Assembly: GCA_009772965.1 (NCBI GenBank)
Contig: WPAF01000002.1
Coordinates: forward strand, 54,199 to 118,198
From: Candidatus Saganbacteria bacterium
GTDB lineage: Bacteria > Margulisbacteria > WOR-1 > XYC2-FULL-46-14 > WPAF01
Reading direction: 5' to 3'
DNA: 64,000 nt
Part shown: in pieces, positions 21,551 through 33,001 of the stretch
How positions within the stretch are numbered: the first letter of the stretch is position 1
Layout of the letters: each line of letters begins with the position of its first letter
The notes under the pieces: generated by a model
The model's input: the letters and a program-made list of their open reading frames with translations, nothing else
The model's database searches: none
What the model was told of the DNA's origin: nothing
Translations under genes and position numbers: made by a program

Positions 21551-21886
21551 TTATCTCAGCTGTTCCTGCTTGAACATTTGCTCGCGGAGGAAGATGCTTT
21601 TTACTGTTGATTCAAGAGCGTAAGAGACTACAAATAATACTATCAGGCCAATCAGTATCCACCAGCCAAGATTGTGATGCTTAATCCATTTAATTGACAC
21701 GTAAATGGTCATTACTACCATCGCCGCGGTAAGGGTGATTCCAAAAAGCATCAATAGAGTAGTTATTAGCATGGGGAAAATTGGCTTAAAAAATATTACC
21801 AGGAGATAACAGGTGTTTGCCCAAACCAAAAGCAAAAGCAACAGATTAAAAACCGTAAAATGTTCTTCTTCAATATCAAAATTCAC
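21551..21886 (-). CDS. Small membrane protein at the 3' end of the V-ATPase operon
   Basis: 111 aa with 3 TM helices. The start overlaps the stop of the subunit D gene (21886). Confidence 0.4.
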   Translation of the reverse strand: MNFDIEEEHFTVFNLLLLLLVWANTCYLLVIFFKPIFPMLITTLLMLFGITLTAAMVVMTIYVSIKWIKHHNLGWWILIGLIVLFVVSYALESTVKSIFLREQMFKQEQLR

Positions 21887-22488
21887 TATTTTCCTCCCTT
21901 TCTTTTTAATATAGAAACATGGCTGCTTCTTTCAAGTTCATCCAGCTTCATTGTAACAAATTTTAAATTATCCTCAAGCTCAGGAATTAATATATATTCC
22001 AAGGCGTTTACCCGCCGCCTGGTTTCAATTATTTGTTTCGCGATAAAATTTAATGACCTTCCCGCTTCCGCAAGCTTAATAAGGGAGGGAAGGGCATTGT
22101 TAAAAGCATTTAATGCTTCGGGCAAATCTTCTGAAGCTAATATTTTAGAAAATTTTAACGGTTCGCCTGAAACCCTTAATTCATACGACGGAATTTCAAC
22201 CCCCATGATGCTTTGGGTTTTTATGTTTATCCGGGCGCTGGCCGTGGATTTATTTTTAAAAACTACAGGGTTTGATAAAGCATACGCAAAAACAGATTTA
22301 GTAAAAATATCTACCAATTCCGGCTCAAGCTTTTTATGGAGGCCAAAATAGCTGTTTTTGATGCTGTAAAACCTTTGCACCAGGCCGTCAAGCTTATCTT
22401 TTAAAAGCTTATGCCCCCTGCGGGCAAGCGCGGTTTGCTTCCTCAGGCGCAGAAGCTGCATCCGAGTGGGACTAATCCGCTTTTGCAT
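21886..22488 (-). CDS. atpD: V/A-type ATP synthase subunit D
   Basis: [36 protein letters not shown] is the canonical subunit D N-terminus. 200 aa. Confidence 0.85.
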
Positions 22489-23833
22489 ATTTGTTAAAAA
22501 TTTCGTCCTTGATGCGCTTTAATTCTTCCCTGGGCAGGATATTTAATAACTGCCAGGATATTTTTAAAGTTTCTTCTATTGTCCGGTTTTCATATTCGCC
22601 CTGCCTGATAAATTTGCCCTCAAACTCATCCGCGAATTTTAGGTAGGTTTTATCAAGGGGCGATAATGCCGCCTCTCCAAATATGACCATAAGTTCACGC
22701 ACTTCTTTTCCTCTTGCATAGGCGGCAAATAATTGGTTGGCAACGCTTGCGTGGTCTTCGCGGGTTTTCCCTTCGCCGATTGCCTTGTCCCTTAATCGGG
22801 AAAGGGAAGGAAGCGGATCAACCGGAGGATATATCCCTTTTCTTTCAAGCGGCCGGTCTAAAATAATTTGCCCTTCGGTAATGTAGCCGGTCAAGTCAGG
22901 GATCGGGTGGGTCTTATCGTCATCCGGCATGGTCAAGATGGGAATTAAAGTAATTGATCCTGACCTGCCTTTAATTCTTCCCGCTCTCTCATATAATGAC
23001 GCGAGATCGGTATATAAATAACCGGGATACCCGCGGCGGCCGGGGACTTCTTTCCTGGCGGCAGATACTTCGCGCAAACTTTCACAATAATTGGTCATGT
23101 CTGTCAATATTGTCAAAACATGCATATTTAAATCAAAGGCCAGATATTCCGCGGCGGTAAGCGCCATTCGCGGGGTTGCGATTCTTTCAATTGCCGGGTC
23201 GGTCGCCAGATTGATAAAAAGCACAGAGGTTTCAATAGCGCCGGTCTTTTTAAAGTTATCGATAAAAAATTCAGCTTCTTCGTAGGTAATTCCCATTGCC
23301 CCAAAAACAACCGCAAAGTTTTGTTCTTTTTTCAAAACTTTTGCCTGCCTGGCAACTTGGGCGGCGAGGTGGGAGTGGGGGAGGCCGGAGCCGGAAAAAA
23401 TCGGGAGCTTTTGCCCTCGCGAAAGTGTGTTTAACCCGTCAATTGTCGAAATGCCCGTTTGGATAAAATCATCCGGATAATCCCTTGCCACGGGATTGAT
23501 AGGGTTGCCGTTAATATCGATTTGCTTTTTTGGGATTATTGCCGGCGCCCCATCGATTGGTTTTCCAAGCCCGGAAAATATCCTTCCTAAAATATCTTCT
23601 GATACTGGAAGCTCGAGCCCTCTCCCTTTAAATTTTAGCTTTACAGTTTTTGAGTCCAATCCAACTGTTCCTTCAAACACCTGCACCAGCGCTTTATCGT
23701 CTTCAACTAATAGAGTTTTCCCTTGTCTTACTTCTCCGGTATTAAGGATTATTTCAACCAGTTCATCATATCCAACGCCTTTAACGCCATCAACCATCAT
23801 CAAAGGCCCTGCAATTTCTCGGATTTTACTCAT
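22472..23833 (-). CDS. atpB: V/A-type ATP synthase subunit B (regulatory)
   Basis: 453 aa. Homologous throughout to V-type B subunits (..[14 protein letters not shown].. degenerate P-loop region, ...[15 protein letters not shown]..). Confidence 0.9.
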
Positions 23834-25550
23834 GGCTCACCCTTCCTGTTAAAGCATGGAACTGGTCGATCAATTCAGTTTCAATAGCATCAGCTTTGTT
23901 TTCATCGGCAAACTTAAGGACGGGAATTTTTTTAATTGCTTCGATTTCTTTGATTTTAGAAAGTTCAACCCCCATTGAAAGCGCGTTTTTTGCCTGTCCA
24001 TAAAAAAGTATGATGGAGTTTAATATTTTAAATTGCTTTCTTAAGCTTGAGTATTGGTCAACCGGATCAAACGCGCTCTGGTATAAAAAATCCTCCCTGA
24101 TTGACTTGGCGGTAAATAAAATAAGCTGTTCAAGCGAGGAGAGGGATTCAACGCCGACTAACCTGGCAATTTCCTCAAGCTCGGCTTCCTTAGATAATAT
24201 TTCTAGGGCAATTCCGCGAACTTTGGGTAATTCCTTTGAAACATTGGCAAGCAAATATTCTTTAACGCTTTCGTTATAAAGCGAATATGAGTTTATCCAG
24301 TTTATCGCGGGGAAATGCCTTTTGTGGGCGAGGGCGTAATCAAGCCCCCAAAAAACTTTTGTTACCCTCAGTGTGTTTTGCACCACTGGCTCTGAAAGGT
24401 CTCCTCCGGGAGGGGAAACAGACCCGATGATAGTTAGAGATCCTTCTCTTTCCGGTTTTCCCATGCACTTGCCGAATCCCGCCCTTTCATAAAATTCCGC
24501 GAGACGGGTTCCAAGATAAGCGGGATATCCTTCTTCTCCCGGCATTTCTTCAAGCCGGCCTGACATTTCCCTGAGTGCCTCGGCCCAGCGGGAAGTGGAA
24601 TCGGCCATAAGGGCTACGTTGTATCCCATGTCCCTAAAATATTCAGCGATTGCCGCTCCGGTATAAACCGAGGCCTCCCTGGCGGCAATCGGCATGTTTG
24701 AAGTGTTGGCAATTAGAACCGTTCTTTCCATGAGCGGTCTTCCTGATTTTGGATCTTTTAAATGCGGGAATTCCAAAAGCACATCCGTCATTTCGTTGCC
24801 GCGTTCCCCGCAGCCGATAAAAATAATTATATCTGCGTCCGCCCATTTTGCCAGCTGGTGCTGGATAACGGTTTTTCCCGCGCCAAACGGTCCCGGCACG
24901 CAGGCCGCGCCGCCCTTGGCAATTGGGAAAAGAGAATCAATAATCCTTTGTCCGGTAACCAAGGGTACTTTTACGGGAGCTTTTTCAGCCAGCTGCCTTC
25001 TTTTCCTTACCGGCCATTTTTTTAGCATTGTAACTGCTTTGCCTGAAACAATAGCAATTGTGCCATCTATGTGAAAGCTTCCGCCTTTAATATCATCAAG
25101 GGTTCCTGAAATTTCAGACATTATCATATGTTTAACAAGGGGAGTTTCCTGCACGTAGCCGAGAATATCCCCCGGCAAAACTTTATCGCTTTTTTTCATA
25201 GTGGGTATAAATTCCCAGCTTTTTTCTCTTGAAAGCGGCAAAACATCAATTCCCCGCCCGATAAAATCCCCCGACTTTTTAAGCAATGTTTCAAGCGGGC
25301 GCTCAATCCCGTCAAAAATAGAAGAGATAAGCCCGGGGCCAAGCTCAACCATAAGAGGCGCCCCTGTTGTTTCTACAATATCTCCCACTTTAAGCCCCGC
25401 GGTTTCTTCATATACTTGGATGCTCGCGTAATCTCCTTTTAGCTCAATAATTTCTCCAATTAGTTTTTTTTCACCCACCCGCACCAGGTCTCCCATTTTC
25501 GCGTTTTCAATTTCCGCCACAACCAAAGGGCCTGCAACTTTTTTAATCAT
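23826..25550 (-). CDS. atpA: V/A-type ATP synthase subunit A (catalytic)
   Basis: 574 aa. Walker A GPFGAGKT. Includes the non-homologous insert region typical of A subunits. ..[22 protein letters not shown].. Confidence 0.9.
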
Positions 25551-25851
25551 TTTGCGACACTCCTATTGCTTCTTTAACTAGCTTATTTGTTTTTTCAAAA
25601 AACAAACCGACGCTTCCCTGATTATCGGGGATAAATACAAAATTAATTTTGCCCTGGTTGAGCTCAATTGATTCCATGCAATCCATTGCCAGGCGTTCGG
25701 TAATAAAAACAACCGCGTACTCATTCTTTTCTGAAATGGCTTCAATCCTAAGGCCGGCTTCATATCCGGAGTCTGCCGGAAAAATTTCTATTCCCGAGGA
25801 GGCGAGGGGCAAAACCATCTGGCTTGGGCCGATCAGCGCGATTTTAGACAT
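25543..25851 (-). CDS. atpF: V/A-type ATP synthase subunit F
   Basis: 102 aa (MSKIALIGPSQMVLPLASSGIEIFP...). The size and position between C and A match subunit F. Confidence 0.7.
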   Translation of the reverse strand: MSKIALIGPSQMVLPLASSGIEIFPADSGYEAGLRIEAISEKNEYAVVFITERLAMDCMESIELNQGKINFVFIPDNQGSVGLFFEKTNKLVKEAIGVSQND

Positions 25852-26542
25852 AGCTTATCCTAACCCTTTCTTTTATTTGTTCGGGGGGAACCTGGAGCAG
25901 TTTTGCGGTCAATACAAAGCGAAGGTTTTTTATTTCAATTTCTTTGGCAATGGCATAGCCGATAAGCGGCTCGATGCCAAAAACAAAATATTTCGCTTCT
26001 TTGATTATTTCCATTAAGTAGTTGTCGATTTCCCTTTCAAAAACGCTTAAGCTGCCGGTTTTTTGAAAGTGGCTTAAGCCTTTATTGACAGCTTTAAAGC
26101 AATCGTAATAACGGTATTTAGCAAGCGCTTGCTCAACCTCGGCTTGTTTAATGCTGGCTTTTAGGGAGTGCAAAACGATAAAACTCTCCGCGTATTTTGA
26201 AAAAATATTAACATTGTGTTTGTCGGCTGTTTGTTTAAGTTTTAATAAATAGTTTTTATCCTCCTCGCCGTCAATTTCATGTTTTTCCCAAATAACTGAG
26301 ATAATTTCATTTTGCGGGGCAAGCTGGTCCAGCAATTCTTTTACTCCCTTAAGCTCCAAACGGCACAAGGCTTCAAAGTCAAAAGGTTTTTCTAGCTTAG
26401 CAAGGTTTTCTGATGTCTCTGATAAAATATTAAAGGCCTGTTCAAAGCTATGGGAATCAACCATCCTTAGGATTTGAGCCTCACTAAGCATTTTGGATTC
26501 TATTGCCCTGATCCGGGCTGAAGCGTAAGCGAATTTAACCAT
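25844..26542 (-). CDS. atpC: V/A-type ATP synthase subunit C (V0 d-like), short form
   Basis: 232 aa. N-terminal YASARIRAIESKML and C-terminal GYAIAKEIEIKNLRFVLTAK match subunit C (d) signature segments. The position between E and F fits. Confidence 0.6.
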   Translation of the reverse strand: MVKFAYASARIRAIESKMLSEAQILRMVDSHSFEQAFNILSETSENLAKLEKPFDFEALCRLELKGVKELLDQLAPQNEIISVIWEKHEIDGEEDKNYLLKLKQTADKHNVNIFSKYAESFIVLHSLKASIKQAEVEQALAKYRYYDCFKAVNKGLSHFQKTGSLSVFEREIDNYLMEIIKEAKYFVFGIEPLIGYAIAKEIEIKNLRFVLTAKLLQVPPEQIKERVRISYV

Positions 26543-26858
26543 AAAGTATTTTTGCCGCCTCTATAAAATATTTTTCTTTGGTTTCTGCCGGCGCACCCGA
26601 AAAGACCGTATCTAAAATTTTGTGTTTTTCTTCGAGCAGTTTCTTTTTTGCTTCAAGGCGAACAGGGGTGATGATAGATCTTTTAAATGCTTCAGCCTTT
26701 TTTTTGCCTTCCTCAAGCATTTTAGCGGTAATTATTTCCGCTTTTTCTTTTGCTTCCCTTTCGATTTCGCGCGCGCCAGCTTCTGCTTTTTCTAAAATTT
26801 GCTTAGCTTCAATTTCAGCTTCTTCAAGTATTTTTGCTTTAATTTCGGCGATTCCCAT
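26535..26858 (-). CDS. atpE: V/A-type ATP synthase subunit E-like (short, 107 aa)
   Basis: K/E/A-rich helical protein (ILEEAEIEAKQILEKAEAGAREIEREAKEKAEII) typical of the peripheral-stalk E N-terminal region. Lies downstream of K. Confidence 0.5.
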   Translation of the reverse strand: MGIAEIKAKILEEAEIEAKQILEKAEAGAREIEREAKEKAEIITAKMLEEGKKKAEAFKRSIITPVRLEAKKKLLEEKHKILDTVFSGAPAETKEKYFIEAAKILYG

Positions 26859-27329
26859 CTATAACTTTATTCCCGATACCATCAGGATTGTGGCCAAAAG
26901 CCCCAATACCGCGTAAGTTTCAACCATTGCCGGCAAGATTATTGCTTTTCCTGATTCTTCTGGCCTTTTAGCAACTAGATGTATACCAGCCGCAGAGGCT
27001 CTTCCCTGGTAATAGCCGGAAATAAGCCCGACAACTCCTACCGGCAACCCGGCAAAGAAAAGCTGGAGGCCTGATGCAAGCGACACAGGAAATGCCCCCC
27101 CTAAAAGATTGATTTTCATCATAATATAAAAGGCGCCAAGAAAGCCGTAAAAACCCTGTGTTCCCGGAAGCGCAATCATAACCAAAAGTTTACCGAATTT
27201 TTCCGGATCCTCGGTTAAAACTCCCGCCGCGGCCTCAGAAGCAACCGCTATCCCCCAGGCCGATCCGCAAGAAGCCAAAAACGCGGCAAAAGCCGCGCCA
27301 GCCAGTGCCAAACCTATCCCAATTTCCAT
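26859..27329 (-). CDS. atpK: V/A-type ATP synthase proteolipid subunit K (duplicated, 4-TM c-subunit)
   Basis: 156 aa with two G/A-rich hairpins (GIGLALAGAAFAAFLAS.. and ..PVGVVGLISGYY). Typical of 16-kDa V-type proteolipids. Confidence 0.8.
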   Translation of the reverse strand: MEIGIGLALAGAAFAAFLASCGSAWGIAVASEAAAGVLTEDPEKFGKLLVMIALPGTQGFYGFLGAFYIMMKINLLGGAFPVSLASGLQLFFAGLPVGVVGLISGYYQGRASAAGIHLVAKRPEESGKAIILPAMVETYAVLGLLATILMVSGIKL

Positions 27330-27343
27330 AAAATCCCCCTTTT

Positions 27344-29275
27344 TTATTTTATCAAGACATACTTTGTTTCTTTTTTAAACGGCTTAAACTCTCGGCCTCC
27401 TCCCTCATAAAATTTACCAAAAAATTCGACAAGCTGCAATCGCATAGAATGAATAAAAGCCCCAAGCACCGAGATAACTAAATTAAATAAATGTCCCCCT
27501 ACAAGGATTATCACCATTATGACATATCCTACAAATGGGATGCCGGCAGTAATTCCGGCAATGATATTTACCACCATACCGATTATTGAGGTGGTCATCA
27601 TAAGCGCTAAAAGGCGGGAGTAGGAGAGGGTGTCGCCCAAATAACTTGTAGTCTTATAAAGGCTAAGGATGCCGGAAATAGTTTTTTTTATGAAGGTTGG
27701 CTCCTGTCTCCCTTGGGTTAATACAAGGAGCAGCGCCCCAATAATTGAAAGCTTTGAAAATGTGCCCGCCCAGATTGAGCCGGTGAACATTGTGCCGGAC
27801 ATAATAACAAGCGACATTAAAAAGAATATCCATAATCCGTGATTTAGTATTCCCTCTAGATACTGCTTGTTTTTAAACTGCCAGCACATTGCTATTACCA
27901 GCCCGCAGATATTTTGAAAAACGCCCAAAAGCAATGAAATCAACAAAACATTAATCGGGTTTTTGATGGGGTCAATTATCCTAAGGCCAATTAGCAGGTT
28001 TCTTATCCCGCCATGAGGAATGGCTTCAAGCGAAATGCTGAAATAACTGCCGGTTATTATGCCGATGGGTATGGTAAGCACTCCGCCCCAGATAAGAAGG
28101 AGCATGAGATTTTTACCGCCTTCGGACAACTGCAGTTTTTTTAATAGATAATATGAAGCAGCGGCAAGGATCAGCCCGTATCCGGCGTCAGAGAGGCAGA
28201 CGGCAAAAAATAAAAGGTAAAAAAATGACAGGGCAGTGCTTGGATCGATTTCGTTTTGTTTTGGGAGGCCGAAGATTTTTGTGATCAGTTCAAACGGGCG
28301 GAAGATTTTTGGGTTTTCAATAATAACCGGAGCAATTTCGCCTTCTTTGGGAGATATCTTTTGGACATCAATCGTATTGGATATGTTTGACAATATTTTT
28401 TTAAGCTTGTTGAAATTTGAGTTTTTAATCCAACCTTCAATAAAAAAGGCGCTTTTTGTTTTAAAAGCGCTTGCCTGCGCATCTTCCTCTGATTTTTTAA
28501 TAAAAAGAAAATCATAAACATAACCAAGCCGCGGCAAAACCTTTGCCATTTCCTTTGCTTTTTTTTCAAGGTTAAAAAGGTTTTCGCGCGACGTTTCCTG
28601 TAGTTGTTGATGCTGTTCCAGTTCTTCTTTTGCGGTATTTTTTGATGAGGGGAGGGGAATTTTGACAAATTCGTTTTTGGCAAGAAGCCCGTTGATAGCT
28701 TTTTCCTCTCTTTTCAAGAAAACAACAAGCAAATAGGTATCTGTCTTTTCTGAATTTACAACACTAATCTCAGCAAAAGGGGTTAATTTAGATAAATTGT
28801 TTTTAAACTCTTCAAGTTTTTTTGTTTTTATGCTTCCAGAAATTATACCGGCAGTTTTTGCGCCGGCCAAAATATTTAGGGGGGTAGTTAAGTTTTGCCA
28901 GGGGGAGAGAATTTCAATCTCTGATTTTAATTTGACCATAAAACTGCGGAGGTTGCCGATTTCCTGCTCAATGTCTTTCACGGATTTTATTATTTCTCCC
29001 CAGTTGAACTTTTTATAAGACATATTAAGTGTTTCCTCGTCAACAATTTCACGCGTTGGGGCAAAAGATTCCAAAAGGTTTTTCTTTTTATTCGCCGCTT
29101 TTTCAAGAAAGGTAATTGCCGCTTTGATTTCTGAAAGCTCCAATTCGCTTGTTTGCGGCTTTGCTCCCTGGCTGATAATCTGGATAATTTCTTCTTTGCT
29201 TAATTTTTCAATAACTGAGTTTTGCAGGCTTTTGTGCCCAATAATCAAAGTTTTAACAACTTCGGCTACTGCCAT
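27344..29275 (-). CDS. atpI: V/A-type ATP synthase subunit I (a-subunit)
   Basis: 643 aa. The N-terminal half is a soluble coiled-coil region. The C-terminal half has about 7 TM helices with a conserved R-containing helix (..HSMRLQLVEFFGKFYEGGG..). Confidence 0.8.
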   Translation of the reverse strand: MAVAEVVKTLIIGHKSLQNSVIEKLSKEEIIQIISQGAKPQTSELELSEIKAAITFLEKAANKKKNLLESFAPTREIVDEETLNMSYKKFNWGEIIKSVKDIEQEIGNLRSFMVKLKSEIEILSPWQNLTTPLNILAGAKTAGIISGSIKTKKLEEFKNNLSKLTPFAEISVVNSEKTDTYLLVVFLKREEKAINGLLAKNEFVKIPLPSSKNTAKEELEQHQQLQETSRENLFNLEKKAKEMAKVLPRLGYVYDFLFIKKSEEDAQASAFKTKSAFFIEGWIKNSNFNKLKKILSNISNTIDVQKISPKEGEIAPVIIENPKIFRPFELITKIFGLPKQNEIDPSTALSFFYLLFFAVCLSDAGYGLILAAASYYLLKKLQLSEGGKNLMLLLIWGGVLTIPIGIITGSYFSISLEAIPHGGIRNLLIGLRIIDPIKNPINVLLISLLLGVFQNICGLVIAMCWQFKNKQYLEGILNHGLWIFFLMSLVIMSGTMFTGSIWAGTFSKLSIIGALLLVLTQGRQEPTFIKKTISGILSLYKTTSYLGDTLSYSRLLALMMTTSIIGMVVNIIAGITAGIPFVGYVIMVIILVGGHLFNLVISVLGAFIHSMRLQLVEFFGKFYEGGGREFKPFKKETKYVLIK

Positions 29276-29559
29276 GCTTTTTTTGCCTCTTTGATTTTTG
29301 AAGGCGGAGTTTGTTTGATTTTTTCTATGTCGAGATTGAGCTGTTTTTCAATTGTTTGTTTTTCTTTTTCCGCAGATATTTCCGCGTCTTTAAGGTAAGC
29401 TTCAATCTTTACTAAAGCGTTATCTTGGGCTTCTTTTATCAGAGCTTCAGCGTTATTACGGGCTCTTTGCACCTTGAGGATCGCATTCTTTTTTGCCTCT
29501 TCAATTATCTGCGCGGCTTTTGCTTCGGCCTCTTGGATTGTTTTTATTGCTTCTTCCAT
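29266..29559 (-). CDS. V/A-type ATP synthase subunit G/H-like (stalk)
   Basis: 97 aa helical, E/K/A-rich (MEEAIKTIQEAEAKAAQIIEEAKKNA...). It is the first gene of the operon, in the same order as Thermus/Enterococcus G. Confidence 0.55.
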   Translation of the reverse strand: MEEAIKTIQEAEAKAAQIIEEAKKNAILKVQRARNNAEALIKEAQDNALVKIEAYLKDAEISAEKEKQTIEKQLNLDIEKIKQTPPSKIKEAKKAWQ

Positions 29560-29610
29560 AAATCTTATGGGAATTTTAACATGATATTAAAGCTTAGTCC
29601 ATTCAAGCGG
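29513..29610. repeat. Direct repeat copy 1 (5' end of the ATPase G gene plus upstream region)
   Basis: GCGGCTTTTGCTTCGGCCTCTTGGATTGTTTTTATTGCTTCTTCCAT...AATTTTAACATGATATTAAAGCTTAGTCCATTCAAGCGG. A near-identical copy lies at 31571-31670. Confidence 0.7.
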
Positions 29611-29622
29611 AGATAACTCTTG

Positions 29623-30891
29623 CTATTTAAACAAATCATCAAGCTCACACGAAAGTAACGCTGATTTGTTTAAAACTATCTGTTCTTTTTGGTTTAAATT
29701 ATCCGCCGTCATTCTAATCACTTTCGTGGAAATGCTGTTGCCAAGCATAACACGGTTTGTTTTCTTAAGATATGCCTCGACTTTATCGTAAAAAAGCGTC
29801 ACGTACTGTTTTAATTTATCGCTTAATTGGCCTTTTATATCGCTGATAACCAGCTGAACTACTTTGTCGTTTATTTTTGTTGGCAAATCTCCTTCCCGAT
29901 CAGTAATCCAATAATCGCTTATAATGCATCGAATTCGGGTGGATCTTTCTTCTTCGGTATTATAAGTATATATGAGAAAATAATTGTCGGTATCAAAATC
30001 CTGGTGTACCTCCATGCTTTCCAATTTTGTTGCCGTATTGATTTTATAATCTTCAAGAAGCCGTAAATAGCTTTCCCTCCAGTTTTTCAGCCAGTTTTCA
30101 ATAAAAATCTGGTTCACGAAAAGCGGCGTTAAGTCATGCTTGAGGTTCACATTATTTACTTTATTCATTTGCAAGGTAAGCTTGTCAAAAAGCGCCCGCA
30201 AATCTTTCACATCTATCTTTTTGGCGACGAGATAGTCAAGATCTGGAACAACCTTTTTTGTCATATACCAAAGGAGGTCGTAAATATCGCGGCCTTTTTC
30301 TTCATATACGGCGTCACCCACGCCACGCTGTCCACGCAGAAAAATAGCGGCGATTTTGCTAGCCATAAGCGCCGACATATTGTAGGTTGTAATAACAAAC
30401 GAGAGTTGGTCGCGGTTTATCGGCCTTCGCTCAACCACGGTCTTTGGCGCCGTGAAGTGATGCAGATCAATTTTAACATGCACTTGTTTTGAAGGATGCC
30501 CGAGGCCCAATTCATCGCCGATATGAAAGCGCAGAAGAAGCCCTCGGACGCCGGTTGTTTTTACCGTCAAAAAATCTGCCTCCGTGCCGTAGGTATTTGA
30601 GAAATGTTTCTCAATGGCTTCTTTTATTTCTCTGAGAAAGGGTGTAGTTATCTCGCTTTTAATTTCAAAATCCAAATCAACCGACATGCGATCAAGCCCA
30701 TGGCAAATGCGGAGCGCCGAGCCGCCGTACATTATCCAATCACTATATTGGGGATGGTGATAAATAAAATTGAGAACATAGTATTGCAAATCTTCTTTCA
30801 AGGCATTGCGTTTTATCTCCACATCCAATGTTTTATGGGTGGCGAGATCATCAATTTTTATTTTAAGTGCCGCGAGAATTTGGTTACTCAT
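29623..30891 (-). CDS. Large AbiEii/DUF1814-family nucleotidyltransferase (toxin-like)
   Basis: 422 aa. The N-terminal ..YVLNFIYHHPQYSDWIMYGGSALRICHGLDRMSVDLDF matches the AbiEii NTase core motif. The start overlaps the upstream AbiEi-like gene. Confidence 0.65.
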   Translation of the reverse strand: MSNQILAALKIKIDDLATHKTLDVEIKRNALKEDLQYYVLNFIYHHPQYSDWIMYGGSALRICHGLDRMSVDLDFEIKSEITTPFLREIKEAIEKHFSNTYGTEADFLTVKTTGVRGLLLRFHIGDELGLGHPSKQVHVKIDLHHFTAPKTVVERRPINRDQLSFVITTYNMSALMASKIAAIFLRGQRGVGDAVYEEKGRDIYDLLWYMTKKVVPDLDYLVAKKIDVKDLRALFDKLTLQMNKVNNVNLKHDLTPLFVNQIFIENWLKNWRESYLRLLEDYKINTATKLESMEVHQDFDTDNYFLIYTYNTEEERSTRIRCIISDYWITDREGDLPTKINDKVVQLVISDIKGQLSDKLKQYVTLFYDKVEAYLKKTNRVMLGNSISTKVIRMTADNLNQKEQIVLNKSALLSCELDDLFK

Positions 30892-31504
30892 GGCGTATAT
30901 ATTTTTTTATCATAGCGTACAATTTTTCTCGTTCTTGTTTGTCCATTTCATCAATATCTATGCGCAACTCAGGGATCAAGGCATCTATCGCTTCCTGCTT
31001 TACCCCGCGAAATTGGCGCGTTTTGAAATATAAAAGGTCAAAAAGTGCTTTTGAGGGCGAAGCGAGAAAAAAGTCAAATCTTCCTTTCACCAAAGAAAAG
31101 CCGGAAAAAAGTTCTTTTTTTATGGAATGATATTCAAAAATTCCCGCCTTAGTGGAATAGGTTTTTGTGATTTTAGGGGTGACTGAGGTAACGGCATGAA
31201 TTATTTCGGTGGCTAAATTATAATACTGCAAAGCCGCCCAAGAGCTTATATACGATGGCATGCGTAAAACATTGGCAAGATAAAACGAATAAGAGATGTC
31301 GCTTTTGTTTTTGTGGTAAAAATCCGCGGAAATGTATAACCCATTCTTGAGATGAATAATTTCTTTGTGCGCTAAAGAACGGTTGATGTAGGAATCAACG
31401 GTGGTGCTTTTAATCTCGTACTGCTTGCATATTTGGGAAATAGTCTCCTTATTGAAATATGGTAGGGCCTTTAGTTGTTCAAGTAATATTTCTCGATATT
31501 TCAT
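30884..31504 (-). CDS. AbiEi-like antitoxin/regulator partner
   Basis: 206 aa. The region ..ANVLRMPSYISSWAALQYYNL.. resembles the AbiEi family. It is operonic with, and overlaps by 8 nt, the NTase gene. Confidence 0.55.
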   Translation of the reverse strand: MKYREILLEQLKALPYFNKETISQICKQYEIKSTTVDSYINRSLAHKEIIHLKNGLYISADFYHKNKSDISYSFYLANVLRMPSYISSWAALQYYNLATEIIHAVTSVTPKITKTYSTKAGIFEYHSIKKELFSGFSLVKGRFDFFLASPSKALFDLLYFKTRQFRGVKQEAIDALIPELRIDIDEMDKQEREKLYAMIKKYIRHE

Positions 31505-31570
31505 AATTATGATGCAATCATATCATTTGTGAAACGACTTGTCAACGCCCATCACCGCGACAAAGTAGGC

Positions 31571-31670
31571 GTCGGCTTTTGTCTCGGCCTCTTGGATTAT
31601 TTTTATTGCTTCTTCCATGGTTATTTGTAGCAATTTTAACATGATATTAAAGCTTAGTCCATTTAAGCTG
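31571..31670. repeat. Direct repeat copy 2 (includes a truncated duplicate of the first 12 codons of the ATPase G gene)
   Basis: GTCGGCTTTTGTCTCGGCCTCTTGGATTATTTTTATTGCTTCTTCCAT...CAATTTTAACATGATATTAAAGCTTAGTCCATTTAAGCTG. About 90% identical to 29513-29610. Confidence 0.7.
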
Positions 31671-32047
31671 AGGAGGGTTAAAGGTTCTCGCAAATACTAT
31701 CTTAATTTAGGCCAAAAGTGGTCTTGACAATGGGGTCAAGCTTAATCCCGATTATGCTTCTGGTACAAAAGGAAAACATTCATTTTTGATTCCTCAAGAA
31801 GCAGTTGGTGGAGTTTTTCCCCAACTCCAATTAATGTTTGCTCCGGGAAAAATAGAAAGCGGCTCGATTTTACGCGTATATTTTGAATAATTTAATTTAA
31901 TGTATATTTGCCGCTCATAAGTTTTGTACACAAATATACTTATGGGCGGCAGCGTTTAAAGGCATACTCCTGCTACGGTTGGATTTTACATGGCGCAATA
32001 CGAATAATTGAATAAATAAACCAGTTATGATATTATAAAATCCCGTG

Positions 32048-33001
32048 ATGCTAATATTTATTCCTGCGTTTTTAATAGCCCTTTTTGTGACCATTCTTGC
32101 TACTCCTATTGTCTCAAAAATCGCCGTCCGCTTTGGCGCGGTAGATAACCCCGGCGAAAGAAAAGTACATACTAAAATTGTCCCAAGATTGGGTGGGGCG
32201 GCGATATATGCCGGCTTTATCTGTTCCCTGATTTTTGGGATTATATTCCTAAAATTATTGGGGAGGGGAATGGAGCCGCTCCATCTTTTGGGAATAATAA
32301 TAGGCGGCACTTTGATTTTTTTAGTCGGTATTTTTGATGACTTAACAGGATTAAAACCAATAACCAAATTAATCTGGCAGTTTATTGCCGCGGGCTTTGT
32401 GGTTTTTTCAGGCGTCACAATTGGCTTTATTTCCAACCCCTTTAATGGAATGCTTACGCTTGGTTTAGTCGGAATCCCGTTGACTTTAATTTGGATTGTG
32501 GGCATGACCAATGCTATAAATCTTATTGACGGGCTGGATGGCCTGGCGGCGGGGGTTACTGCCATATCTTCTGGGACGCTGTTTTTTGTGGCGCTAAGGA
32601 CTCACCAAATCGGAGCGGCTTTAATTATGCTTTCTTTATGCGGAGCGGCGCTGGGATTTTTGCGGTACAATTTTTTTCCAGCTAAGATATTTTTGGGTGA
32701 TTCAGGCAGTTACCTTTTAGGATTTCTGCTGGCGTCGGCATCAGTAATAGGGGTTTTCAAAACTACGCTGGTAGTAGCTCTTATTATTCCCATCATGATT
32801 TTAGGCGTGCCGATATTTGATACTATGTTTGCCATTACCAGAAGGTTGGGCGAGGGGCGGTCTCCCTTTGCGGCGGATAAAAAACATATCCACCACATGC
32901 TCTTAAGGGCGGGATTTACACAGAGGGAAGCGGTTTTGGCGATTTATATTGCCTGCTTTCTTTTAAGCATAGGAGCGCTTCTCATGGCGTTAAGCAAATG
33001 A
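32048..33001 (+). CDS. wecA: Polyprenyl-phosphate N-acetylhexosamine-1-phosphate transferase (WecA/TagO/MraY family)
   Basis: About 318 aa with 10-11 TM helices. Motifs ..NAINLIDGLDGLA.. and DSGSY are diagnostic of the MraY/WecA family. Confidence 0.8.
   Translation: MLIFIPAFLIALFVTILATPIVSKIAVRFGAVDNPGERKVHTKIVPRLGGAAIYAGFICSLIFGIIFLKLLGRGMEPLHLLGIIIGGTLIFLVGIFDDLTGLKPITKLIWQFIAAGFVVFSGVTIGFISNPFNGMLTLGLVGIPLTLIWIVGMTNAINLIDGLDGLAAGVTAISSGTLFFVALRTHQIGAALIMLSLCGAALGFLRYNFFPAKIFLGDSGSYLLGFLLASASVIGVFKTTLVVALIIPIMILGVPIFDTMFAITRRLGEGRSPFAADKKHIHHMLLRAGFTQREAVLAIYIACFLLSIGALLMALSK

What the first reader, a model, noticed from the sequence alone, without database searches (positions are those of the whole stretch)
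29506..31672. AbiEi/AbiEii module inserted at the head of the V-ATPase operon, bracketed by ~100-bp direct repeats that duplicate the operon 5' end
Two roughly 90%-identical repeats (29513-29610 and 31571-31670) flank a 2-kb segment carrying only the AbiEi-like and large AbiEii-like genes. Each repeat contains the ATG and first about 12 codons of the ATPase G-subunit gene plus about 55 nt of its upstream region. The distal copy is therefore a truncated pseudo-start. This is the footprint expected if a TA/abortive-infection cassette was acquired by recombination or insertion with target duplication. It would place the operon's original promoter region upstream of the cassette and a duplicated copy in front of atpG.
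Basis: seen in the sequence. Interest (0 to 1): 0.6.

Follow-up and report, generated by a model that had tools for sequence, protein, structure and literature searches.

The report
AbiE cassette inserted with 100-bp duplication
A two-gene toxin-antitoxin/phage-defence cassette (AbiEi/AbiEii) sits just upstream of the V-type ATPase operon of a Saganbacteria genome and is flanked by two imperfect copies of the operon's promoter and start codon; this is the "insertion with long target duplication" footprint known for restriction-modification genes, seen here for a toxin-antitoxin cassette.

Summary
Two direct repeats (29514-29612 and 31573-31672; 87 of 100 columns identical, one indel, no other copy in the window) bracket a 1,960-bp segment that holds only AbiEi (206 aa) and AbiEii (422 aa). 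Each repeat carries a promoter-like site, the ATG and 15 codons of the first V-ATPase gene. The distal copy is a 31-codon dead end.

The arrangement is identical in an independent 51-kb assembly, so it is not an assembly artefact. Two distant Saganbacteria relatives keep the same neighbours (glycosyltransferase | ATPase operon), with about 60 nt between them and a single operon head. This supports insertion.

The cassette family is 67-77% identical in protein across very different phyla. Related copies lose similarity about 41-51 nt before the AbiEi ATG and 1-6 nt after the AbiEii stop. No recombinase is present.

Long, imperfect, locus-specific flanking direct repeats recur in this family: 7 of 40 homologous loci (5 contexts) against 0 of 347 control segments.

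The closest known case is "insertion with long target duplication" of restriction-modification systems (Nobusato 2000; Furuta 2010). I file this as a new member of that kind. The mechanism is unresolved, and no close cassette-free genome was available.

The parts
31573..31672 (-). Distal direct repeat, a pseudo-head of the V-ATPase operon. It holds a promoter-like site (-35 TGGACT at 31661, -10 TAAAAT ending at 31633) and the ATG at 31618 with 15 codons. The reading frame then runs into foreign sequence and stops at 31523.
31546..31572 (-). 27-nt junction segment between the distal repeat and the cassette promoter. It matches neither the repeat nor the upstream flank printed for any homologous cassette.
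31517..31545 (-). The cassette's own promoter, TTGACA-17-TATGAT with an upstream TG (11 of 12 consensus positions), 12 nt before the AbiEi ATG. It is the leftmost sequence conserved across the cassette family.
30884..31504 (-). AbiEi-like antitoxin/regulator gene (206 aa). It overlaps AbiEii by 8 nt.
   Evidence: PADLOC AbiEi 1.7e-35. No Pfam hit at E<0.01, only weak HTH hits. It is paired with AbiEii in the homologous loci.
29623..30891 (-). AbiEii-like nucleotidyltransferase toxin gene (422 aa). The AbiEii domain covers about residues 16-274, followed by a conserved C-terminal extension of about 150 aa with unknown fold.
   Evidence: Pfam PF08843 6.7e-22; PADLOC 5.5e-30; conservation; low-confidence model
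29613..29622 (-). 10-nt junction between the AbiEii stop codon and the proximal repeat. No terminator-like site was found here.
29514..29612 (-). Proximal direct repeat, the working head of the V-ATPase operon. It holds a promoter-like site (-35 at 29601, -10 ending at 29573), the ATG at 29559 and the first 15 codons of the 97-aa gene.
21886..29559 (-). V/A-type ATPase operon: small G/H-like subunit (29266-29559), I (27344-29275), K (26859-27329), E (26535-26858), C (25844-26542), F (about 25543-25851), A (23826-25550), B (22472-23833), D (21886-22488).
31673..32044 (.). 372-nt non-coding spacer between the distal repeat and the divergent glycosyltransferase gene. It has no ORF, no Rfam hit and no similarity to any fetched locus. 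The equivalent spacer in relatives is about 60 nt at most.
32048..33001 (+). Divergently transcribed Glycos_transf_4 gene (WecA/MraY-like). It is the conserved left neighbour of the ATPase operon in relatives L086 and L091.

Best explanation
A horizontally acquired, self-contained AbiEi/AbiEii module (own promoter, two overlapping genes, no recombinase) was inserted between the divergent glycosyltransferase gene and the V-ATPase operon of a Candidatus Saganbacteria genome. The insertion duplicated about 100 bp of the target, namely the operon's promoter, start codon and first 15 codons. The copy next to the operon keeps promoter and gene start intact, so the ATPase operon was not disrupted. 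The other copy became a dead-end pseudo-start upstream of the cassette. This is the footprint called 'insertion with long target duplication'. Inferred mechanism: the cassette was captured at a break whose two ends overlapped by about 100 nt (widely staggered nicks, or a template switch at a replication fork that re-copied the target). Both overlapping ends were filled in, and the copies later diverged to 87% identity. Events that duplicate a gene start are the ones that survive, because the target gene stays intact. The addictive toxin-antitoxin pair then resists loss by recombination between the repeats. Inferred expression consequences: abiE can be read both from its own autoregulated promoter and from the duplicated ATPase promoter. 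With no terminator after abiEii, transcripts can continue into the ATPase operon, which also keeps its own promoter. Shown here: the repeats, the gene content, the absence of the cassette and presence of a single head in relatives, the mobility of the cassette family, and the recurrence of flanking repeats. Inferred: the break/fill-in mechanism, the selection argument and the transcription pattern.
For: The insert holds only AbiEi and AbiEii. Relatives L086 and L091 have identical synteny, no cassette and one operon head. The arrangement is 100% identical in an independent 51-kb assembly (L172). A 99.7%-identical contig (L001) carries the AbiEii->atpG junction, and the Logan contig L005 spans both cassette/repeat junctions. 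The cassette family is mobile: 1,709 homologues at E<=1e-20, the best 120 at 71-77% identity, from Parcubacteria, Aminicenantes, Atribacteria, Actinobacteria and other phyla. AbiEi is paired with AbiEii in the 80 fetched loci wherever the contig reaches far enough. Cassettes 84-97% identical in DNA but in different contexts lose similarity 41-51 nt before the AbiEi ATG and 1-6 nt after the stop in most pairs. Flanking direct repeats recur: 7 of 40 loci (5 distinct contexts; 29-383 nt, 82-94% identical) against 0 of 347 control 1.9-kb segments. These repeats are different in every locus, so they derive from the target and not from the element. They cover gene ends: a terminator hairpin in L129 and the 3' end with stop codon of an HsdS-like pseudogene in L126. 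The published precedent for restriction-modification systems has the same properties: variable duplications of 30 to over 400 bp, imperfect repeats, no mobility genes, and repeats that often span a translation start or stop (PMC2853133).
Against: No close cassette-free genome was found. The empty-site comparators are only 52-53% identical in subunit I and cannot be aligned at nucleotide level, so 'target duplication' is inferred from synteny rather than seen directly. The 13 differences between the copies are not spread evenly: 0 of 29 in the promoter, 8 of 14 between the -10 and the ATG, 4 of 48 in coding sequence (binomial P = 1.7e-4). Simple neutral decay of one copy does not predict this pattern; it would also fit two independently constrained orthologous heads (the Campbell-type rival). 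27 nt and 10 nt of unexplained sequence lie at the two junctions. A 372-nt spacer of unknown origin lies outside the distal repeat, whereas relatives have about 60 nt. Most homologous loci (33 of 40) show no flanking repeats.
Confidence: 0.62

Rival explanations
1. Campbell-type integration. A circular DNA (for example, excised from a related Saganbacteria genome by recombination between flanking repeats) carried the cassette plus a diverged copy of the ATPase operon head. It integrated by a single homologous crossover in the recipient's operon head. That automatically gives two chimeric, non-identical direct repeats around the insert.
For: The repeats are 87% rather than 100% identical, and all other flanking repeats in the family are also imperfect at 82-94%. 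A 32-nt perfectly identical core is about the length usually quoted, from my own knowledge, as the minimum for efficient RecA-dependent crossover. Differences cluster in the unconstrained stretch between -10 and ATG while the promoter and most codons are conserved, as expected for two orthologous functional heads. Furuta et al. suggested release and reinfection of repeat-flanked units, a step for which they say there is no experimental evidence (PMC2853133).
Against: It requires a donor that already had the cassette next to the same operon head, so the first insertion is still unexplained. 100 bp at 87% identity is a poor substrate for homologous recombination. No second lineage with this arrangement was found. 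Perfect repeats would break short-read assemblies, so the lack of 100%-identical cases may be a sampling bias.
Confidence: 0.22
2. Chance insertion between pre-existing repeats, or a local duplication unrelated to the insertion. The operon head was already tandemly duplicated, or was duplicated later, and the cassette landed between the copies.
For: Furuta et al. list 'chance insertions between repeated sequences' as a recognised class. The age of the duplication relative to the insertion cannot be measured here.
Against: None of four related loci has a duplicated head. Flanking repeats are strongly enriched around this cassette family relative to control segments, 7 of 40 against 0 of 347, which chance does not explain.
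Confidence: 0.08
3. Site-specific integration of a non-autonomous element. The repeats are attL/attR of a small island mobilised in trans by an integrase encoded elsewhere, with the element carrying a replacement copy of the gene start, as tRNA-targeting islands carry a replacement gene end.
For: An identical 32-nt core is flanked by diverged arms. Related cassettes have sharp, recurrent ends.
Against: There is no integrase, transposase or terminal inverted repeat in or next to the insert. Flanking repeats in other genomes are unrelated to each other and of very different length, 29-383 nt, so there is no common att site. Most loci have no repeats at all.
Confidence: 0.05
4. Assembly artefact (mis-joined or expanded repeat).
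For: Logan contigs break exactly inside the 32-nt identical core.
Against: An independent k=119 assembly gives a 51-kb contig that is 100% identical over the 12,954 nt fetched, which span the whole region. A 99.7%-identical contig from another assembly covers the proximal junction. The Logan contig L005 reads from the distal repeat through the cassette into the proximal repeat. The copies differ at 13 positions, so reads place uniquely.
Confidence: 0.02

Closest known systems
Insertion with long target duplication of restriction-modification gene complexes (Nobusato et al. 2000, Gene 259:99; Furuta, Abe & Kobayashi 2010, NAR 38:2428, PMC2853133)
   Same: A small self-contained 'addiction' module with no mobility gene is inserted with a long direct duplication of unique target sequence. 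The length varies from case to case (30 to over 400 bp) and the repeats are often imperfect (for example 384/412). The repeats frequently span a translation start or stop, so the target gene stays intact. Flanking repeats are enriched relative to other genes.
   Different: The cargo here is an AbiE toxin-antitoxin/abortive-infection pair whose toxin is a nucleotidyltransferase, not a DNA-cutting enzyme. The published suggestion that the mechanism depends on double-strand breaks made by the restriction enzyme therefore cannot apply as stated. Here the empty site is known only from distant relatives. I found no paper applying this class to TA/Abi modules; the hits were citations only.
AbiE type IV toxin-antitoxin / abortive infection system (Lactococcus pNP40, Streptococcus agalactiae; Dy et al. 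2014; recalled from my own knowledge and cited in PMC8562856)
   Same: Bicistronic, overlapping abiEi-abiEii genes; an AbiEii (DUF1814/PF08843) nucleotidyltransferase; an upstream AbiEi with a weak N-terminal helix-turn-helix signal; a strong own promoter directly in front of abiEi.
   Different: AbiEii is 422 aa, with a conserved extension of about 150 aa absent from the models. AbiEi is not recognised by Pfam AbiEi families, only by PADLOC profiles. This subfamily was not found on catalogued plasmids or phages (best 31% identity on plasmids; none in phages or IMG/VR). No function was tested.
Chromosomal TA 'islets' inserted in intergenic or intercistronic sites (ccdO157 in folA-apaH, mazEF in relA-mazG; Fraikin et al. 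2020, PMC7167474)
   Same: A lone TA pair without mobility genes is inserted next to or inside a housekeeping operon that is intact in genomes lacking it. The insertion mechanism is acknowledged as unknown.
   Different: The passages I read do not describe a long target duplication for those cases. Here the duplication is explicit and includes a promoter and a start codon.
Single-crossover (Campbell) integration of circular DNA
   Same: It produces direct repeats of the homologous segment on both sides of the insert.
   Different: It needs a pre-existing homologous copy on the incoming DNA. There is no evidence here for a circular form or for a donor lineage.

Membership tests
AbiE (type IV TA / Abi) | Toxin with AbiEii/DUF1814 nucleotidyltransferase domain | tested here: met
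   PF08843 E=6.7e-22, 79 bits against a cut-off of 22.5; PADLOC AbiEii 5.5e-30
AbiE (type IV TA / Abi) | Cognate AbiEi antitoxin/regulator encoded immediately upstream, with genes overlapping | tested here: met
   PADLOC AbiEi 1.7e-35 over residues 7-201; 8-nt overlap. Pfam AbiEi families give no hit, only weak HTH matches. The pairing is seen in the homologous loci that extend far enough upstream.
AbiE (type IV TA / Abi) | Autoregulated promoter with AbiEi operator repeats | tested here: inconclusive
   A strongly conserved promoter block from TTGACA to the ATG is present in all 68 loci printed. Operator repeats and AbiEi binding were not analysed.
AbiE (type IV TA / Abi) | Toxicity neutralised by AbiEi; phage abortive infection | not testable with these tools
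   Needs expression and phage assays
Insertion with long target duplication (criteria of Furuta et al. 2010) | Complete system lies inside the inserted segment | tested here: met
   Both genes and their promoter lie within 29613-31572
Insertion with long target duplication (criteria of Furuta et al. 2010) | Insert shorter than 20 kb and free of integrase, transposase or phage genes | tested here: met
   The insert is 1,960 nt with two genes only. The neighbours are a glycosyltransferase and ATPase subunits.
Insertion with long target duplication (criteria of Furuta et al. 2010) | Direct duplication longer than 30 bp, not a high-copy repeat | tested here: met
   99/100 nt; only two copies in the 64-kb window. 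The rest of the genome is not available.
Insertion with long target duplication (criteria of Furuta et al. 2010) | An empty-site genome whose single sequence aligns with both repeats | tested here: inconclusive
   L086 and L091 have the same gene order, no cassette and a single operon head. They are too diverged (52-53% aa identity in subunit I) for nucleotide alignment of the site. No close relative was found.
Integrase-mediated genomic island / cis-mobilisable element | Tyrosine or serine recombinase in or beside the element, and a conserved att core shared between copies | tested here: not met
   No such gene is present. Flanking repeats differ completely between loci.
IS / transposon | Terminal inverted repeats, a transposase, and a short fixed-length target duplication | tested here: not met
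   The only inverted repeat found in 28500-33000 (22 nt, 77% complementary) is not at the insert ends. There is no transposase. The duplication is 100 nt here and varies from 29 to 383 nt across loci.

The most novel reading that the evidence does not exclude
This AbiEi/AbiEii family is a minimal, recombinase-free mobile unit with near-exact ends (about 10 nt before its -35 box to about 5 nt after the stop codon). It repeatedly enters genomes of unrelated phyla by insertion with long, variable target duplication. If so, that insertion mode is a general route for addiction modules (TA as well as restriction-modification systems) and does not depend on DNA cleavage by the cargo. It would give a concrete, testable footprint for the still-unknown way in which chromosomal TA systems integrate.
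Probability: 0.3. Interest if true: 0.7.

Novelty: new member of a known kind. Interest (0 to 1): 0.45.

Why it matters
How lone toxin-antitoxin and defence cassettes get into chromosomes without any recombinase is an acknowledged open question. Fraikin et al. 2020 (PMC7167474) write that the mechanisms 'remain unelucidated to this day', and Belot et al. 2026 (PMC13617665) still describe the mechanisms as poorly characterised. The window offers a clean, well-bounded example: a 1.96-kb AbiE module flanked by a 100-bp duplication that preserves the promoter and start of an essential-looking operon. The family survey shows the footprint is recurrent and statistically enriched. It links TA mobility to a phenomenon so far described for restriction-modification systems. 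Because the AbiE toxin is not a nuclease, it also argues against the idea that the cargo's own DNA cleavage causes the duplication. For the host, the insertion places an autoregulated toxin module in the transcriptional path of the V-ATPase operon and duplicates its promoter, which could couple their expression.

Tried and rejected
1. The genome-contig scan with subunit I gave only hits of 33% identity or less, so no close relative and no species match.
2. I looked for cassette-free strains through exact-protein look-ups of the small ATPase subunit, AbiEii and the glycosyltransferase. Every contig that reached the site carried the cassette or broke in the repeat.
3. I tested whether many about-2-kb contigs of homologues end in the same k-mer at both ends, which would signal perfect flanking repeats. 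Only the window's own Logan contig L005 does (28 nt); L176-L180 and the 80 metagenome loci do not.
4. Rfam found nothing credible in 28500-33000 (one match, mir-6 at E=0.29, taken as chance) and only one tRNA far from the cassette in six repeat-bearing loci, so the repeats are not known RNA genes.
5. The 372-nt spacer 31673-32044 gave no blastn or tblastx match to any fetched locus and has no ORF.
6. Vehicles: no close homologue on PLSDB plasmids (31% or less), none in INPHARED phages, none in IMG/VR.
7. The AlphaFold model of AbiEii was poor (pLDDT 64, pTM 0.41). Foldseek gave only weak nucleotidyltransferase-fold hits (NF90/NF45, CdnC, OAS-like), all above E=1e-3, and nothing for the C-terminal extension, so no hint of a DNA-processing domain.
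8. Genes inserted at the same GT4|ATPase junction in other Saganbacteria (L089 342 aa; L087 68 and 63 aa) have no informative Pfam hit.
9. I rejected the transposon, integron-cassette and att-site readings, for the reasons given in the membership table.
10. No microhomology was evident by eye at the two junctions.
Full report
**What is in the sequence**

All relevant genes lie on the minus strand. Reading 5'->3' on that strand, the order is as follows.
- A 372-nt non-coding spacer (32044->31673) lies next to the divergent glycosyltransferase gene (32048-33001, + strand).
- The distal repeat runs 31672->31573.
- 27 nt of unassigned sequence follow.
- A strong promoter comes next: TTGACA-17-TATGAT with an upstream TG, 31545->31517.
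- abiEi runs 31504->30884 (206 aa).
- abiEii runs 30891->29623 (422 aa) and overlaps abiEi by 8 nt.
- 10 nt follow the abiEii stop.
- The proximal repeat runs 29612->29514.
- The V/A-type ATPase operon follows: a small G/H-like subunit of 97 aa starting at 29559, then I, K, E, C, F, A, B, D down to about 21886.

**The repeats**

The two repeats share 87 identical positions in 100 aligned columns, with one indel. The longest perfect run is 32 nt. They occur nowhere else in the window.

Each repeat contains the following:
- a promoter-like site, TGGACT-17-TAAAAT preceded by TG;
- 13-14 nt between the -10 hexamer and the ATG;
- the ATG, 15 further codons' worth of sequence in total (46 nt of coding sequence).

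The proximal copy continues into the 97-aa gene. The distal copy runs into foreign sequence and ends after 31 codons.

**Identity of the genes**

- AbiEii matches Pfam PF08843 (6.7e-22) and PADLOC AbiEii profiles (5.5e-30). These matches cover only residues of about 16-274; the last 150 or so residues are an uncharacterised but strongly conserved extension.
- AbiEi is missed by Pfam but matches PADLOC AbiEi profiles at 1.7e-35.
- The 97-aa protein matches V-ATPase_G_2 only below threshold (E = 0.003). Its position as first gene of the operon is conserved in relatives.
- The host is a Candidatus Saganbacteria (WOR-1) genome. This follows from the source name attached to the 100%-identical subunit I protein.

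**Not an artefact**

- An independent ENA assembly (k=119, 51-kb contig, L172) is 100% identical over the 12,954 nt fetched, which run from the ATPase genes through the cassette to the glycosyltransferase side.
- A contig from another assembly (L001) is 99.7% identical and carries the abiEii->proximal repeat->ATPase junction.
- The Logan contig L005 reads from the distal repeat through both genes into the proximal repeat.
- Logan contigs break inside the 32-nt identical core, as expected for k=31 graphs (my own knowledge of that assembler).

**Evidence that it is an insertion**

The nearest available relatives of subunit I are only 47-56% identical.

Two of them (L086, L091; 52-53%) keep the whole neighbourhood. 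On one side are CTP synthase, CNNM, YbeY, MurA, epimerase and GT4. On the other side is the ATPase operon. GT4 and the first ATPase gene are separated by about 60 nt (L086) or lie back to back (L091), with no AbiE genes.

All four related loci tested have a single operon head.

Other Saganbacteria have unrelated genes at this junction (L089/L090) or different neighbours altogether (L087, L175). The site is therefore variable in the lineage.

No cassette-free close relative was found, so the empty site is known only at the level of gene order.

**The cassette family**

The 422-aa AbiEii has 1,709 homologues at E<=1e-20. The best 120 are 71-77% identical, and their source names include Parcubacteria, Aminicenantes, Nealsonbacteria, Kerfeldbacteria, Atribacteria and Actinobacteria. 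That level of identity across phyla implies frequent horizontal transfer.

In 80 metagenome loci, AbiEi precedes AbiEii wherever the contig reaches far enough upstream.

Sequence conservation begins exactly at the -35 TTGACA, 41 nt before the abiEi ATG, and stops at the abiEii stop codon.

Cassette pairs that are 84-97% identical in DNA but sit in different contexts lose similarity 41-51 nt upstream and 1-6 nt downstream in most cases. One example is L128 against the L111/L117 clade: 96% identical, with ends at -51 and +5. A third context, L105, also diverges after about 5 nt past the stop codon on inspection of the printed flanks.

There is no recombinase in or beside the window's cassette. 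The subfamily was not found on catalogued plasmids, phages or viral contigs.

**Recurrence of flanking repeats**

I compared 700 nt upstream with 700 nt downstream of each cassette.
- Significant direct repeats appeared in 7 of 40 testable loci, representing 5 distinct contexts.
- The repeats were 383 nt at 90%, 74+48 nt at 82% and 94%, 53 nt at 85%, 30 nt at 93%, and 29 nt at 93%.
- None appeared in 347 control segments of the same size taken from the fetched loci.

The repeats differ from locus to locus, so they derive from the target. Where interpretable, they cover gene boundaries: a terminator hairpin in L129, the 3' end with stop codon of an HsdS-like pseudogene in L126, and the promoter plus start codon in the window.

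**Comparison with the literature**

This is the pattern described for restriction-modification systems as 'insertion with long target duplication'. Its published features are:
- variable duplications of 30 to over 400 bp;
- often imperfect repeats;
- no mobility genes;
- repeats that frequently span a translation start or stop, so the target gene stays intact;
- enrichment over other genes (Furuta et al. 2010, PMC2853133; Nobusato et al. 2000 as cited there).

Those authors suspected a role for double-strand breaks made by the restriction enzyme. AbiEii is a nucleotidyltransferase, so that explanation does not transfer.

TA reviews state that the integration mechanism of chromosomal TA systems is unknown (PMC7167474; PMC13617665). 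I found no paper applying the long-target-duplication class to TA/Abi modules.

**Mechanism**

Two models fit the data.

Model 1: the duplication was made at insertion, by widely staggered breaks with fill-in or by a template switch that re-copied the target, and the copies later diverged.

Model 2: a circle carrying the cassette and a diverged copy of the operon head integrated by a single crossover.

The uneven spread of the 13 differences and the 32-nt perfect core lean towards model 2 or towards selection on both promoters. The differences fall as 0 of 29 in the promoter, 8 of 14 between the -10 and the ATG, 4 of 48 in codons and 2 of 11 upstream (P = 1.7e-4).

The family-wide recurrence with unrelated targets, the need in model 2 for a prior donor with the same arrangement, and the poor homology (100 bp at 87%) lean towards model 1.

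I prefer model 1 (about 0.6 against 0.2) but cannot decide between them without a close empty site.

**Consequences for the host (inferred)**

The duplication left the ATPase operon with its own promoter and an intact first gene. abiE has its own promoter and additionally lies downstream of the duplicated ATPase promoter. No terminator-like site follows abiEii, so read-through into the ATPase operon is likely.

**Verdict**

It is a clean new example, with a new kind of cargo, of a known but mechanistically unexplained insertion mode. The family-level enrichment is the most useful new lead.

Noticed in passing
window 22709-23888 (compared with L001): 28 of the 29 differences between the window and the 99.7%-identical contig L001 fall within this 1.2-kb stretch, which spans the end of the ATPase B gene and the adjoining start of the D gene. 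The cassette and repeats show none. This looks like a small imported recombination patch.
   Followed up: partly
window 31673-32044: A 372-nt non-coding spacer lies between the distal repeat and the glycosyltransferase gene, where relatives have about 60 nt at most. It has no ORF, no Rfam hit and no similarity to any fetched locus. Two hairpin + T-run sites are predicted on the + strand (31731-31750, 31809-31829). Its origin is unexplained.
   Followed up: partly
window 29623-30080 (AbiEii residues about 272-422): A C-terminal extension of about 150 aa, absent from AbiEii models, is strongly conserved to the last residues across phyla (for example the motif ...NKSALLSCELDDL). The AlphaFold model was too poor to assign a fold.
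   Followed up: partly
L110, L134, L139, L140, L155, L163, L168, L171 (3-4 nt after the AbiEii stop): In 17 of 59 distinct downstream contexts a co-oriented gene starts within 12 nt of the AbiEii stop. Eight of these encode a small protein of 60-67 aa with paired cysteines (for example MPKEIANKTKEETYYKCAHCGDEIFW). Several others have DNA-methyltransferase-like N-termini. The cassette often heads a composite operon.
   Followed up: partly
L111, L113, L116, L117, L118, L121, L176-L179 (directly after the AbiEii stop): One cassette lineage carries a short fragment resembling the 5' end of radC (MSMKIKDLPKIDRPREKL...) directly after the stop codon. No long ORF follows it in L111 or L117. It looks like a piece of a former neighbour carried along, mirroring the ATPase gene-start fragment in the window.
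   Followed up: partly
window 29573-29559; L086 7672-7701; L091 around 7700; L174 51-72: In Saganbacteria the -10 box of the ATPase operon (TGnTAAAAT) lies only 8-14 nt before the start codon. The cassette promoter is likewise 12 nt from the abiEi ATG. This suggests leaderless or near-leaderless mRNAs.
   Followed up: no
L089 11767-12999 (minus strand): In a WOR-1 relative, a 410-aa gene of unknown function on the opposite strand interrupts the V-ATPase operon between the F and A subunit genes.
   Followed up: no
L126 5185-5229: The upstream copy of the flanking repeat carries a 45-nt GC-rich insertion (ccttcgactgcgctcaggacaggccccttcgacaggctcagggcgg). I suspect it is a small repetitive element, but that was not checked.
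   Followed up: no
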